Of a stretch of 64,000 bases of DNA, positions 27,821 to 53,637 are shown piece after piece (position 1 is the first letter of the stretch; every line of letters begins with the position of its first letter). The notes beneath the pieces were generated by a model. That model did not search any database and was not told the DNA's origin. It saw only the letters and a list, made by a program, of their open reading frames with translations. The stretch comes from Felis catus. Taxonomy: Eukaryota. The stretch covers positions 52,764,001-52,828,000 of the forward strand of contig NC_058382.1 of NCBI RefSeq assembly GCF_018350175.1, in the 5' to 3' direction. The translations under genes were made by a program, and so were the position numbers.

Positions 27821-28188
27821 CCCCACCTCCCCTCCCCTCCTCTCTCCTTCCCTCCCCTCCTCTCTCCTTCCCTTCCCCTTATCCCTTCCCCTTCCTTCCC
27901 CTCCCATCCCTTTCCCTCCCCCCCTTCTCCCCTCCCCTCCCCTTCCCTCCCCCCCTTCTCCCCTCCCCTCCCCTCCCCTCTCCTCCCCTCCCCTCCCCTC
28001 CCCTTCCCTTCCCTTCCCTTCCCTTCCCTTCCCTTCCCTTCCCTTCCCTTCCCTTCCCTCCCCTCCCCTCCCCTCCCCTCCCCTCCCCTCCCCTCCCCTC
28101 CCCTTCCCCTCCCCTCCCCTCCCCTCCCCTCCCCTCCCCTTCTTTCTCTTCCCCTCCCATCACCTCCCTTCCCTTCCCTTCCTTTCTC
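27821..28188. repeat. Polypyrimidine (CCCCT)n/(CCCTT)n tract
   Basis: About 370 bp of almost pure C/T with pentamer periodicity. Confidence 0.97.
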
Positions 28189-34252: not shown

Positions 34253-34470
34253 TTTTTTTTAATTTTTTTTTAGCATGTATTTTTGAGACAGAGAGAGACA
34301 GAGCATGAACAGGGGAGGGTCAGATAGAGAGGGAGACACAGAATCCAAAACAGGCTCCAGGCTCTGAGCTGTCAGCCCAGAGCCCGACGCGGGGCTCGAA
34401 CTCACGGACTGCGAGATCGTGACCTGAGCCGAAGTCGGACGCTCAACCGACTGAGCCACCCAGGCACCCC
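34253..34470 (-). mobile_element. SINEC_Fc (felid CanSINE), full length with 16-bp TSD
   Basis: Full antisense body; TSD tgccccccRgatttct at 34237-34252 and 34471-34486 (one mismatch). Confidence 0.97.
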
Positions 34471-43564: not shown

Positions 43565-43759
43565 TTTTTTAACGTTTATTTTTGGGAGAGAGAGGGTGAG
43601 TGGGAGGGGGGCAGAGAGAGAGGGAGACAGAATCTGAAGCAGGCTCCAGGCTCCGAGCTGTCAGCACGGAGCCTGAGGCGGGGCTGGAACCCACAAACTG
43701 TGAGATCATGACCTGAGCCAAAGTCGGACACTTGACCGACTGAGCCAGCCAGGCACCCC
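43565..43759 (-). mobile_element. CanSINE (SINEC_Fc-like)
   Basis: Antisense body with acagaatctgaagcaggctccaggctccgagctgtcagc; degenerate TSD agccttgtgccgt / agcgttgtgccat. Confidence 0.95.
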
Positions 43760-44113: not shown

Positions 44114-44858
44114 TGGGGTAGACAGGATAATGGCCCCGAAGTTGCCGACATCCAGATCCCCACAACCTGCGAATATATGAGGTCATGGGGCAAGTGGGGC
44201 ATTCGAGTTTCAAAATGGAATTAAAGCAGCCGGTCAGCGGAGCGTAAAATTGGGAGATTGCTCTGGATTATCCAGATCGGTCCAGGATAGTCACAGAGCT
44301 TCCTTAAATAGGGAAAAGGGAGGCAGCAGAGTCAGAAGCAGATAGCAGAGCACAGAAGACGTGGCCTGATGTTGCCATCTTTGAAGAGGGAGGAAGGGGA
44401 TGTGGACCAAGGGATGCCGACAGGCCCCGGAAGCTGGAAAACACAGGAAATGAATCCCCCCTGGAGCTTCCACAAGGGAACAGAACCCTGCTGACACCCA
44501 GGATTTTCACCCAGTGAGTTCCATTTTAGACTCACGACCTCCAGCACTATAGGAAAATAAATGTCTTTTTTTTTTAACATTTATTTATTTTTGAGAGAGA
44601 GAGACAGAGCGAGCACACATGGGGCGGGGGGGGGGGGAGGGGCAGGGAGAGAAGGAGGCATAGAATCCCAAGCAGGCTCCAGGCTCCGAGCTGTCAGCAC
44701 AGAGCCCAACGAGGGGCTCGAACTCATGAACCGTGAAATCACGATCTGAGCCAAAGTCAGACGCTTAACCGACTGAGCCACCCAGGTGCCCCTATGTGCG
44801 TCTTTTAAGCCACTAAGTTGGGGGCAATTTGTTCCAGCAGCCACAGGCAGCTGACAGA
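44114..44858 (+). mobile_element. MLT1D solo LTR split by a SINE
   Basis: tggggtagacaggataatggcccc start, gggagattgctctggattatcc, ctttgaagagggaggaagggg, gacctccagcactata, ttttaagccactaagtt..ttgttccagcagccacagg end. Confidence 0.9.
44565..44792 (-). mobile_element. CanSINE (SINEC_Fc-like) inside MLT1D
   Basis: Full antisense body ending gactgagccacccaggtgcccc. Confidence 0.95.
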
Positions 44859-49703: not shown

Positions 49704-50061
49704 TTTGCGAGGCCCTGGGTTAGCTTTCTATTGCTGCTGTAACAAATTAGCACAAGCTTAGGACCTCAAACAACCCAGATTTATCATCCTTCAGTTCCAC
49801 CTGGCAAAGGTCCGACAACACGAGTCTCGAGGCTGAGATCAAGGTGTGGTCAAGGCTGTGTTCCCGCTGGAGACCCTAGGGGAGAAGCTCTTCTCTGGCC
49901 TTTTCCACCTCCCAGAGATCTCCCACGAGACTCCGGGCCCCTTTCTTCCATCTTCAAGGTCAGGAACGTGGGGCTGAACTCTTTTCACAATGACATCTTT
50001 CTGGCTCTCTCTTCAAATTTCCTCTTCCCCCCCTTTTTTTTTTAATTTTTATCTTATTTTT

Positions 50062-50292
50062 TTTATTTTTTTTTTAATTTTTTTTTTCAATGTTTACTTA
50101 TTTTTGGGACAGAGAGAGAGACAGAGCATGAACGGGCGAGGGGCAGAGAGAGAGGGAGACACAGAATCGGAAACAGGCTCCAGGCTCCGAGCCATCAGCC
50201 CAGAGCCCGACGCGGGGCTCGAACTCACGGACCGCGAGATCGTGACCTGGCTGAAGTCGGACGCTTAACCGACTGCGCCACCCAGGCGCCCC
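50062..50292 (-). mobile_element. Young SINEC_Fc inserted in the tail of an older SINE
   Basis: TSD taatttttatcttattttt at 50043-50061 and 50293-50311; CpGs retained. Confidence 0.97.
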
Positions 50293-50497
50293 TAATTTTT
50301 ATCTTATTTTTGAGAGAGAGGGAAACAGAGTGTGAGTGGTGGAGGGGCAGAGAGAGAGGGAGACACAGAATGTGAAGCAGGCTCCAGGCTCCGAGCTGTC
50401 AGCACAGAGCCTGACACGGGGCTTGAACCCACGAACCGTGAGATCATGACCTGGGCCAAAATCAGGTGCTTAACCGACTGAGCTGCCCAGGCGCCCC
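50293..50497 (-). mobile_element. Older CanSINE (its tail continues at about 50034-50042)
   Basis: Antisense body; flanking cctcttcc repeat at 50021 and 50498. Confidence 0.93.
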
Positions 50498-50704
50498 CCT
50501 CTTCCACTTTTAAGGACCTTTGTGATTACATTGGTCCTGCTGGATAATCCAGGATAATCTTCCCATTTTAAAATCAGCTGATCAGCACCATAATTCCATC
50601 TGCAATCTTAATTCCCCTTTACCTTGTAGCCTAACATATCCACAGGTTCTTGGAAGTAGGGTGTAGATATCTTTTGGGGGGGGCATTATTCTGCCTTCCG
50701 CAGT

Positions 50705-51153
50705 CATCTTGTCACCTGTCTAGGCACTGTGCAAAGCAGAGACGATACCACAGTAAATGATACCAGCAAGGCCCTTGTGCCCGCAAAGCTTATGTTCTGG
50801 TGGGGTGAAGGGCGTTGAAAAGGTCAGCAAGCAAATAGGGTAATTACAGGAAGCACAAGCGGTGTGTGTGAAATAAAAAAAGAAGGGTGCCGTGATGGAG
50901 AATAATTATGGGAAGTCGTTACATAAATAGAATAATCAGGAGAGCCTCCTGACGGACCCTAAAGCATGAAAAAGGGCCTGTCATGTGACGCGCTGGGAAA
51001 AGATGTTCTAGGAAGAAGGAACAGCAAACACAGTGGCCCTGAGGCCTTGAGAAAAATCATTCCGACTTCCTTCTATAAAATATATCGGAGAAGGTGAATG
51101 AGGGTGACTGTTAGTAGCTGTTGGAGTGATGCAGGAGAAAGACGACAAAGGCC
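50705..51153 (-). mobile_element. L2 fragment (left part of a split L2)
   Basis: ctaggcactgtgc, agcttatgttctggtgggg, atcagggagagcctc, tgggaaaagatgttctaggaagaaggaacagcaaacacagtggccctgagg. Confidence 0.75.
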
Positions 51154-51369
51154 TTGTGCGGCAGGTGGAATCATAGCACCGGAGGAGAGCCATACCCTCA
51201 TCCCCAGAATGTGCGGATGTTACTTTATACGGCAAAAGGGCATTTTTGTTTTTTTATTTTTTTTAGGTGACTTCATGTGTGATTTTATTTCATATTACAA
51301 AAATATTAACCAAGCAGCCAGTAGTCAGATGGCAAGCACTCTATAACAAATTCTGTTGAGGTTACGAGC

Positions 51370-51770
51370 GTAGGTTTTCAGAGTGTTACCGAATCTAAGA
51401 ATTGACTGCAGAGTTTGTTAAAAATGCGTATTTTCTTTTTTTTTTCTTTTTTTTTTTTAATTTTTTTTTCAACGTTTATTTATTTTTGGGACAGAGAGAG
51501 ACAGAGCATGAACGGGGGAGGGGCAGAGAGAGAGGGAGACACAGAATCGGAAGCAGGCTCCAGGCTCTGAGCCATCAGCCCAGAGCCCGACGCGGGGCTC
51601 GAACTCACGGACCGCGAGATCGTGACCTGGCTGAAGTTGGACGCTTAACTGACTGCGCCACCCAGGCGCCCCAAAAATGCGTATTTTCAAGCTAAACACC
51701 AGATTCTAATTTAGTAGGACTGAGGTGGAGTCTAGGAATCCACAAATTGTTGGCCAACTTAGTGACCCTG
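51370..51770. mobile_element. MER5-like fragment within the insert, split by a SINE
   Basis: gagtttgttaaaaatgc | ccagattctaatttagtaggactgaggtggagtctaggaatc. Confidence 0.6.
51436..51672 (-). mobile_element. Young SINEC_Fc with perfect 16-bp TSD
   Basis: TSD aaaaatgcgtattttc at 51420-51435 and 51673-51688. Confidence 0.98.
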
Positions 51771-51818
51771 GCAGGAGACAAAGAGATTACTATGGAGTTA
51801 GGCATACCCTTATTTCTT

Positions 51819-52051
51819 TTTTTTTTTTTTTTTTTTTTAATTTTTTTTCAACGTTTATTTATTTTTGGGACAGAGAGAGACAGAGCATGAACGGGGGAGG
51901 GGCAGAGAGAGAGGGAGACACAGAATCGGAAGCAGGCTCCAGGCTCTGAGCCATCAGCCCAGAGCCCAACGCGGGGCTCGAACTCCCGGACCGCGAGATC
52001 GTGACCTGGCTGAAGTCGGACGCTTAACCGACTGCGCCACCCAGGCGCCCC
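51819..52051 (-). mobile_element. Young SINEC_Fc with perfect 16-bp TSD
   Basis: TSD catacccttatttctt at 51803-51818 and 52052-52067. Confidence 0.98.
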
Positions 52052-53040
52052 CATACCCTTATTTCTTATTTGAACTGGAAAAATGGATGATGGGTATGAT
52101 AGAATGAACCTTATTAGATCATCAACGGAGAGGCAGGAACGGGCCAAGGTGTTTTAGCCTAGCTTAAGAGGCTCAGATTAGAAAAGGCCTCCAGTATCAC
52201 ACCAAAAAACCCTATGGATTTGAATCTTGAAACCAAATAAGGTTTCAGAGTAGGGGAATAATAATCTGAGTGATTTTTAAAGGAGCGTTGATTTGCTGGG
52301 ATGAGTTGTAAAGATGGAAGGCCGGTGAGGTTTAGAATGAGGTGATAAAGGTAAGCATCAAGGAGGAGGTACAGACAATAGAAAAACAAAGTTGCAAGTC
52401 ATTTTGGTAAAAATGTTGAACTTCCATTTACATACGTAAGGATAGGAAGTTAATATTAAATACATTAAAAATACTCATTAAAAACTTAATAGGAACAGCA
52501 CCAATAGCAATAACAATAATAAAAATAGTAAGAATGAAATCTTTAACAGGTCTTTCAGACGTTTACTTGCATCGTTCTTGAAACTCCACAGGAGCTCAAC
52601 AACCGTTTGTGTTGCCTTCTTTCAATGGGGCTTTGAGAGCAGAATTTTCTTTACTTTCATGAAGAAAAGCAAAAGGCATTTTTAGATGTAATGCAGTGAA
52701 GGGTTGAGATGAGGAGACGGTCTGGGAGGGCCTCACTAAAATCACAAGCGTCCTCATAATAGACACAGAGGAAGGTTTAACCACAGAATTAGCAAATGTG
52801 ATGACAGAAGCTGGCTTGAGTGATGGAGGGAGGAATCATGGGCCCAATAAGACCATAGTCTCTGTGGCCTGGAAAAGGTGAGGGGACTGATTCTGTGGGG
52901 CCCACGCCTTGACTTTAGCCCAGGAGAGCTGGTATCAGCCTCCTGGCCTCCATGCCTCCAGAACTCCAAGAGTTCTCGTGTTGTTTTAAGCTGCCACGTC
53001 TGTGACCATTTGTCAGGGCAGCCCTAGGAACCTCGCATGT

Positions 53041-53300
53041 CTCACTAAGGATGTGCTTTTGGACACAGAGGAGGAGTCCCCCTGGGGCAGAACTTGGTCC
53101 CCCTGGGGCGTGGGGAGAGCCGGGGGACAGAGGATGTGGGATGAGCCTACGGTCCCTACTTGAGTGACTGACCGGAGAATGGTGGCATTAACTGAGAGAA
53201 AGACGAGCAGAGGGAGGAGAGAGAGTTCGGTTTGGGCCGTGCTGAGACCGAGTGCACAGATGAGGCCCAGGAGACCCTGGCTGTGCGGGTCTGGAGACCC
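53041..53300 (-). mobile_element. L2 fragment (right part of the split L2)
   Basis: cactaaggatgtg, gaatggtggcattaactgaga, gagttcggtttgggccgtgctgag, gtgcgggtctggag. Confidence 0.55.
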
Positions 53301-53637
53301 AGCTTCAGGCCGAGGGCCTGGAACCTATTAGGCACTCACTGAATGAGTGAATGAATGAGTGAATGAATGAACGAATACTTGATGTGAATGTGGCAATCCT
53401 CTGTGAATGGTGGTAGCTGACACCATCAGATTGGACAAGATACTCCGAGGCTTGGTATTTCGGTTAACCTTTCTGCTTAAAAATATGTCCCTGAAACCTT
53501 GTCTTATTTAAAGGCAATTTCGTTTCGGCCTGACTCTCCTTCCATGCCCCCTGTGAGTTTTCTCCTCCGGGAGACACCATCTTTCAGCCTCCCATCCCCC
53601 AATCGATGGGATGCCACTTTTAAATACTGGCAGTTTC

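What the first reader, a model, noticed from the sequence alone, without database searches (positions are those of the whole stretch)
51232..52683. Hidden L1-mediated retrocopy of a non-TE transcript (~0.9 kb excluding SINEs) splitting an LTR
Seen: the MLT1 LTR stops at ggcaaaagggcattttt and resumes 1.42 kb later at gcaaaaggcatttttagatg. The TSD is 15/16 bp with one indel. On the minus strand the insert ends in a decayed poly(A) (51249-51264) with AATAAA about 20 nt upstream (51284-51289), and the empty site reads TTTT/AG. Established: these are target-primed reverse transcription hallmarks of the L1 machinery. The body is AT-rich unique sequence carrying passenger MER5-like and L2-like fragments, with no L1 sequence. 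Inference: a 5'-truncated processed pseudogene (mostly 3' UTR), a copy of an intronically polyadenylated RNA, or an orphan 3' transduction. Repeat and gene annotation would probably miss it.
Basis: partly seen in the sequence, partly recalled or inferred. Interest (0 to 1): 0.72.

Follow-up and report, generated by a model that had tools for sequence, protein, structure and literature searches.

The report
Truncated HMMR retrocopy in an LTR
This is a dead, intron-less copy of the tail end of the cell-division gene HMMR (RHAMM), pasted by LINE-1 machinery into an old retroviral-type repeat in a cat-family genome; it is real and easy to miss, but an ordinary processed pseudogene.

Summary
A 1,421-bp insert (919 bp without two later SINEs) splits an old MLT1-like solo LTR, with a 15/16-bp target-site duplication, a TTTT/AG nick site, a decayed poly(A) and AATAAA 19 nt upstream. 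Its 5' end encodes the HMMR/RHAMM C-terminus: a sub-threshold Pfam HMMR_C hit and 13 of 15 residues matching the published human T703 peptide. A genomic contig from a public run aligns up to an AG at 52617 and then diverges for 171 nt, where the last intron is expected; its letters were not shown. An RNA contig carries the same UTR without SINE2. It is therefore a 5'-truncated processed pseudogene: about 55 nt of exon 17 plus exon 18, roughly 5% diverged, with no promoter and no sign of expression in the one raw-read RNA sample laid. Side lead: about six RNA reads and contig depth point to a third, transcribed HMMR-tail copy. The donor's poly(A) site and the outgroup empty site were not tested. 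The scan had no earlier HMMR note; other retrocopies were noted in this genome. Ordinary; interest low.

The parts
51156..51247 (+). Left arm of an old MLT1-like (MaLR) solo LTR; family name recalled
   Evidence: Aligns to LTR-like copies at 44114-44203 (+) and 50610-50717 (-) above shuffles and stops at the TSD
51232..51247 (+). Target-site duplication, left copy (16 nt)
51249..51264 (-). Decayed poly(A) tail of the retrocopy
   Evidence: Direct reading
51284..51289 (-). AATAAA polyadenylation signal, 19 nt upstream of the tail
51265..51435 (-). Distal 3' UTR of the retrocopy, including one copy of the SINE1 TSD (51420-51435)
51436..51672 (-). SINE1, a young felid CanSINE (subtype IIB-like), 16-bp perfect TSD; splits the MER5-like fragment (about 51399-51745, label recalled)
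   Evidence: A-box T>G as described for IIB in PMC4084570
51673..51818 (-). Middle 3' UTR segment between the SINEs
   Evidence: The loose end of RNA contig X15 record 14 equals window 51773-51802
51819..52051 (-). SINE2, a young felid CanSINE (IIB-like), 16-bp perfect TSD; absent from the source transcript
52052..52562 (-). Proximal 3' UTR of HMMR, with an L2-like passenger at about 52150-52350 (label recalled)
   Evidence: RNA contigs and reads align with about 3-5% differences
52563..52670 (-). Coding remnant of the HMMR C-terminus: 24 codons to a TGA (52596-52598), 35 codons to a TAA (52563-52565)
   Evidence: Pfam PF15908 positions 139-157 of 157, E 0.0049, below the gathering score; 13 of 15 identity with the human T703 peptide; the residue before the TAA maps to human residue 724
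52615..52616 (-). Inferred spliced junction of exon 17 and exon 18 (last intron lost)
   Evidence: X9 record 24 aligns 52451-52617, ending on the AG, then 171 nt run on unlike the window
52669..52670 (-). 5' truncation point with a likely 2-nt microhomology (GC) between target and the HMMR Ala codon
   Evidence: the mouse exon-17 primer in bioRxiv 2021.02.19.432042 ends on the K-A codons; inferred
52669..52683 (+). Target-site duplication, right copy (15 nt, one G lost); followed by AG (TTTT/AG nick site)
52669..53036 (+). Right arm of the MLT1-like solo LTR
   Evidence: Collinear with the copy at 44235-44538; its 3' part matches the copy at 49722-49917 (64.5 vs shuffle maximum 47.5)

Best explanation
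A spliced, polyadenylated HMMR-derived mRNA was copied by LINE-1 ORF2p in trans in a germ cell of a felid ancestor. The endonuclease nicked TTTT/AG inside an already old MLT1-like solo LTR, and the T-rich end primed reverse transcription on the poly(A). Synthesis ran through the roughly 0.8-kb 3' UTR and the last exon junction and stopped about 55 nt into exon 17. It joined the target through a 2-nt microhomology and left a 16-bp duplication. The copy was dead on arrival (no promoter, at most 35 codons, antisense to the LTR) and has since drifted about 5% from the gene-like sequences. Two young SINEs later landed in its AT-rich UTR. Shown: junction anatomy, HMMR peptide match, an alignment break at an AG, SINE2 absent from a source-like RNA. 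Inferred: that the 171 unseen letters are the intron, the germ-line origin, the microhomology, an age of roughly 10-25 million years (recalled mammalian rates) and the lack of function.
For: TSD, tail, AATAAA and nick motif. LTR arms collinear with another copy. HMMR_C is the only Pfam family hit for the frame at E up to 1, and it matches the very end of the profile. 13 of 15 identity with the human RHAMM peptide printed in PMC3217025; the residue before the second stop maps to human residue 724 against a stated length of 725. X9 record 24 leaves the window right after the AG that a splice acceptor would share with the end of the upstream exon, and differs by 11 substitutions and 3 gaps in 167 nt, so it is a paralogue and not this locus. 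HMMR has 18 exons and mouse exon 17 holds the codons just before the truncation. An 885-nt RNA contig runs across the SINE2 site without the SINE. A separate canid HMMR retroCNV shows that the gene is a LINE-1 substrate.
Against: The Pfam score (17.6 bits) is below the gathering score of 28.6. Both large protein searches, the PDB search with the 35-residue frame and the Atlas returned nothing, so no full-length HMMR was fetched and aligned. The 171 diverging letters were not displayed, so GT-AG intron identity was not read. The donor's poly(A) site was not tested, and the RNA contig extends 613 nt past the SINE2 site where 285 would reach this tail without SINE1: the source may have a longer end, other inserts, or be DNA. 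The empty site in outgroups was not seen; the lay had no depth at 52690-52900 in 3 of 4 runs.
Confidence: 0.93

Rival explanations
1. Still an HMMR-derived processed copy, but not made directly from the gene's mRNA: this insert and a third sequence (haplotype B) descend from one earlier retrocopy, either by second-round retrotransposition of a transcribed retrocopy or by DNA duplication.
For: In one cat-labelled poly(A) library two haplotypes (A and B) occur over 52112-52240; they differ at 4 sites in 36 nt and neither equals the window. B differs from the window at 8 of about 261 nt (3.1%), against 27 of 494 (5.5%) for A plus the intron-bearing piece. Contigs identical or nearly identical to the window have 1.89-1.93 times single-copy depth; a two-copy model gives at most 1.5-1.7 and a three-copy model about 2.1.
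Against: B rests on about 6 reads from 2% of one run. The distance difference is not significant overall (Fisher p 0.15; p 0.02 against record 24 alone). Independent retrocopies from the gene, divergent alleles, or B being the gene are not excluded. The tool warns that contig depth is no copy number, and X15 record 16 looks chimeric.
Confidence: 0.2
2. Orphan L1 3' transduction: an L1 inside or upstream of the last HMMR exons read through into them, was spliced and polyadenylated at the HMMR site, and was truncated before any L1 sequence was copied.
For: No L1 sequence is needed in an orphan transduction, and the TPRT hallmarks would be identical (established knowledge).
Against: The insert is sense-strand HMMR, begins inside a coding exon and crosses the apparent normal junction. 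Ordinary mRNA explains this without an extra L1, and HMMR has another retrocopy in canids.
Confidence: 0.03
3. Copy of unspliced or intronically polyadenylated RNA, or a DNA-level duplication of unique sequence that only mimics TPRT.
For: The RNA contig runs longer than the retrocopy's 3' end predicts; the intron letters were not read.
Against: The genomic paralogue breaks from the window at the AG while the reading frame continues across that point on both sides. Tail, signal and TSD are all in register.
Confidence: 0.03

Closest known systems
LINE-1-mediated processed pseudogenes (retrocopies) of mammals
   Same: Spliced junction, poly(A) after AATAAA, 16-bp TSD, TTTT/A-type nick, 5' truncation, no promoter.
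   Different: Very little coding sequence (at most 105 nt, one junction), so it falls below RetrogeneDB's criteria of 150 bp, 50% coverage and two introns (PMC5509963, passages).
Canid retroCNV HMMRL1 (Batcher et al. 2022, PMC9435743, supplement file 12, row 723)
   Same: Same parent gene; listed with a poly(A)-type junction.
   Different: A non-reference canid copy whose listed junction flanks do not resemble this LTR site (compared by eye); an independent and much younger event. Ten of 21 supplementary files were not searched.
HMMR/RHAMM (PF15908 HMMR_C)
   Same: C-terminal residues around the T703 phosphosite (13 of 15 identical).
   Different: Only the last 24-35 codons are present; the T703 position reads Ala; no basic-zipper core, no start in donor sequence.
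Feliform CanSINE subtype IIB / SINEC_Fc1 (Walters-Conte et al. 2014, PMC4084570)
   Same: Both nested SINEs carry the A-box T>G and a one-base deletion relative to older copies in the window; the paper dates IIB to the last 5 million years.
   Different: The subtype is assigned from the paper's text; its alignment figure was not seen and its subfamily II motif GGCTCGG reads GGCTCAG here.

Membership tests
L1-mediated processed pseudogene | Target-site duplication flanking the insert | tested here: met
   15 of 16 nt, one deletion
L1-mediated processed pseudogene | 3' poly(A) downstream of a polyadenylation signal | tested here: met
   Tail 51249-51264, AATAAA 19 nt upstream
L1-mediated processed pseudogene | L1 endonuclease-type nick site | tested here: met
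   TTTT/AG on the strand opposite the transcript; consensus recalled
L1-mediated processed pseudogene | Homology to a parent gene elsewhere in the genome | tested here: met
   HMMR peptide match; diverged paralogous DNA contig and RNA contigs; no copy in the window
L1-mediated processed pseudogene | Loss of a parental intron | tested here: met
   Genomic contig breaks at the AG at 52617-52616 and runs on unlike for 171 nt; one contig, letters not displayed
L1-mediated processed pseudogene | 3' end coincides with a poly(A) site of the parent | tested here: inconclusive
The human UTR end resembles it by recall only.
L1-mediated processed pseudogene | Empty site in outgroups | not testable with these tools
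   No genome held; DNA holders were organism A (13 runs) and B (1 run)
Functional retrogene | Intact ORF of the parent | tested here: not met
   At most 35 of about 725 codons
Functional retrogene | Transcription of this locus | tested here: inconclusive
   In X24 all reads covering 52210, 52285, 52324, 52387 and 52395 carry non-window letters (3-4 reads each; 2% of one run). In X15 window-identical stretches are present but may be DNA.
Orphan L1 3' transduction | Source L1 immediately upstream of the donor segment | not testable with these tools
   Donor locus not available
Transposable element consensus end to end | Insert is itself a repeat family | tested here: not met
   No second copy in 64 kb; depth about twice single-copy in two DNA runs; HMMR coding end

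The most novel reading that the evidence does not exclude
Felids carry a small family of HMMR-tail retrocopies in which one copy (haplotype B) is transcribed as poly(A) RNA at a level at least equal to the parent in some tissue, and it, or its ancestor, served as the template for this insertion. That would be a retrocopy-of-a-retrocopy lineage made almost wholly of 3' UTR, invisible to protein-based catalogues, and a candidate trans regulator (miRNA decoy or antisense RNA) of a mitotic and meiotic spindle gene.
Probability: 0.12. Interest if true: 0.45.

Novelty: new member of a known kind. Interest (0 to 1): 0.2.

Why it matters
Modestly. It is a clean example of the UTR-only retrocopies that protein-based catalogues skip, and a nested series (LTR, then retrocopy, then two young SINEs) usable as felid phylogenetic markers. 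In practice a roughly 95%-identical copy of the last HMMR exon can absorb short reads and confound expression, variant and primer work on cat HMMR. If the transcribed sister copy is real, second-round retrotransposition of UTR-only copies becomes directly testable in cats.

Tried and rejected
No whole genome is held. Self-BLAST found no donor in the window. Rfam gave 0 matches. Two other candidate frames at the 5' end (plus strand, 61 and 29 residues) had no Pfam hit. PDB sequence searches: one irrelevant hit at E 0.19 for the 30-residue frame, none for the 35-residue frame. The 5.8-billion-protein search found no candidate, the 1.84-billion search 0 hits at E 0.001 and the Atlas no usable hit; with a 30-41-residue query these are weak negatives. 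Metagenome scans: 0 matches for a UTR 21-mer; 49 matches for a coding 19-mer, all chance, with the longest alignment to the insert 31 nt. Four short joints from the SINE edge (20-22 letters on the short side) were treated as SINE artefacts. The six RNA runs listed hold 0.20-0.48 of the words; only X15 was laid, so the others are not used as evidence. My first idea that the TGA at 52596 is a decayed arginine codon is unresolved: it may be the true felid stop; 8 difference rows were not displayed. A promoter role for the LTR over the insert was considered and rejected by inference (opposite strand; the insert sits near the LTR's 5' end). Whether the site lies in an intron of a host gene was not determined. 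Literature: no felid HMMR retrocopy was seen (0 papers; 20 of 74 listed; 4 of 4 listed) or 49 (25 of 410 listed, none containing HMMR); retrocopy databases and genome annotations could not be searched, and bioRxiv supplements (such as the catalogue of 10.64898/2026.06.26.734816) were closed, so it may already be listed.

Full report
Observation. The sequence is as described. A 16-nt word at 51232-51247 recurs with one G missing at 52669-52683, enclosing 1,421 nt. On the minus strand the insert ends in a decayed poly(A) (51249-51264) with AATAAA 19 nt upstream, and the plus strand reads TTTT/AG at the right junction. Of 3,000 random window 16-mers, 46 have a one-deletion copy within 3 kb; that control does not ask for the copies to sit at both junctions with a tail beside them. 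The flanks are two arms of one LTR-like repeat. Aligned separately, the left arm matches two other copies in the window and stops at the TSD, and the right arm resumes in order against the copy at 44114-44538. The right arm did not beat shuffles against the second copy. The names MLT1, MER5 and L2 are recalled resemblances, as no repeat library was on hand. Two SINEs inside the insert have perfect 16-bp TSDs and differ at 4 of 203 positions; removing them leaves 919 nt. The SINE type points to a cat-family genome (against PMC4084570 passages).

The donor. No donor lies in the window and no genome is held. Six-frame translation gave three candidate frames at the 5' end. One, on the minus strand, hit Pfam HMMR_C at profile positions 139-157 of 157 (E 0.0049; 17.6 bits, below the gathering score of 28.6); the other two hit nothing. 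A full-text search with a motif from that frame returned one paper with the motif, PMC3217025, whose passage prints the human RHAMM peptide around T703. The window matches 13 of its 15 residues, with Ala at the T703 position. Counting from T703, the residue before the TGA at 52596-52598 is 713 and the residue before the TAA at 52563-52565 is 724; human HMMR is given as 725 residues and 18 exons (PMC12625487 passage). Whether the cat gene stops at the TGA or the TAA is open. A mouse exon-17 primer (bioRxiv 2021.02.19.432042 passage) ends on the K-A codons, and the insert starts on that Ala codon, whose first two letters are also the end of the target duplication: a likely 2-nt microhomology (inferred). 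The large protein searches returned nothing, so no full-length HMMR was aligned here.

Public runs. Of 24 runs listed, 14 DNA-type runs hold 0.99-1.00 of the words of 52068-52900 (13 organism A, 1 organism B) and 6 RNA runs hold 0.20-0.48. Four were laid on 52030-52900. First, X9 record 24 (341 nt, depth 15.3) aligns over 52451-52617 with 11 substitutions and 3 gaps, and its remaining 171 nt on the upstream side do not fit. Positions 52617-52616 read AG on the minus strand: a genomic copy with an intron here would match exactly through that AG and then diverge. I read this as the parent gene with its last intron, lost in the insert; the letters were not displayed and this is one contig. Second, an 885-nt RNA contig (X15 record 14; 7 differences in 272 nt) passes from the SINE2 TSD directly into sequence equal to window 51773-51802, so the source-like RNA lacks SINE2 and the middle segment belongs to the same UTR. 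Its overhang is 613 nt where 285 would reach this tail without SINE1 (538 with it), so the donor's poly(A) site is not confirmed. Third, in the cat-labelled oligo-dT library (X24, about 2% read) every read over five diagnostic sites carries a non-window letter (3-4 reads per site), which gives no sign that this locus is transcribed there. The tool drops human-like records and the right flank was nearly empty in all four runs, so the empty site was not tested.

Mechanism and history. The best-supported account is target-primed reverse transcription of spliced HMMR-derived mRNA by LINE-1 proteins in trans: nick at TTTT/AG, priming on poly(A), synthesis through about 0.8 kb of UTR (796 nt from the TAA) and the last junction, truncation 55 nt into exon 17, and a 16-bp duplication. 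HMMR is needed in gonadal tissue (PMC7226759 passages) and has a separate retroCNV in canids (PMC9435743 supplement file 12; 10 of 21 files not searched), so it is a plausible substrate. Divergence from the gene-like pieces is 23 substitutions in 494 nt (4.7%; 27 events with gaps). With recalled mammalian rates that is roughly 10-25 million years, probably around or before the felid radiation; this is inference. Both nested SINEs show the A-box change described for subtype IIB, dated to the last 5 million years, which fits their arrival after the retrocopy; this is shown for SINE2 and inferred for SINE1. In X14 a contig with one difference from the window continues without SINE2 and no SINE2 junction piece was listed, so SINE2 may be polymorphic; contigs cannot show absence.

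A side lead. X24 holds two haplotypes over 52112-52240 that differ from each other and from the window. A matches the X15 contig; B (about 6 reads) differs from the window at 8 of about 261 nt. Contigs matching the window have 1.89-1.93 times single-copy depth, above two-copy predictions (at most 1.5-1.7) and near three-copy ones (about 2.1). A third HMMR-tail copy that is transcribed is therefore plausible. B is closer to the window than the gene-like pieces are (3.1% against 5.5%), but not significantly overall (p 0.15). X15 record 16 looks chimeric, being A-like to 52403 and window-identical beyond, and depth is a poor copy measure. This stays a lead.

Comparison and verdict. The insert meets the tested defining features of an L1-mediated processed pseudogene, with the parent's poly(A) site inconclusive and the outgroup empty site untestable. 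It fails the test for a retrogene. It would be missed by RetrogeneDB's criteria (PMC5509963 passages). No felid HMMR retrocopy was seen in the paper searches or in the scan's notes, but annotations, databases and bioRxiv supplements were out of reach. All papers were seen as listings, passages or supplement rows, none in full. It is a new member of a very common kind; interest 0.2.

Noticed in passing
window 52100-52420 (runs X24, X15, X9, X14): Evidence for a third HMMR-tail sequence (haplotype B) in poly(A) RNA, differing from both this insert and haplotype A; contig depth about 1.9 times single copy.
   Followed up: partly
window 51819-52051 (run X14, record 7): In the organism B run a contig almost identical to the window continues without SINE2, so this SINE may be polymorphic or lineage-specific.
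   Followed up: partly
window 50720-51150 and 53045-53330: L2-like sequence (recalled resemblance) on both sides of the LTR suggests a four-level nest: L2, LTR, retrocopy, SINEs.
   Followed up: no
window 44114-44850 (+), 50480-50717 (-), 49722-49917 (-): Other MLT1-like LTR copies. The one at 44 kb is interrupted by a SINE at about 44566-44792; the two minus-strand pieces flank a SINE pair and may be one interrupted LTR.
   Followed up: partly
window 50033-50497: Two SINEs in tandem: a young IIB-like copy (50054-50292) sits in the tail region of an older copy (50298-50497).
   Followed up: no
window 52599-52679 (-): An ATG inside the target duplication is in frame with the HMMR remnant and gives a 27-codon ORF; no promoter or expression evidence, probably chance.
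   Followed up: no
window 34380-34465 and 43668-43754: The two ARAGORN tRNA calls lie inside CanSINE copies and are SINE heads, not tRNA genes.
   Followed up: yes
window 27826-28182: A 357-bp polypyrimidine pentamer array (71 copies).
   Followed up: no
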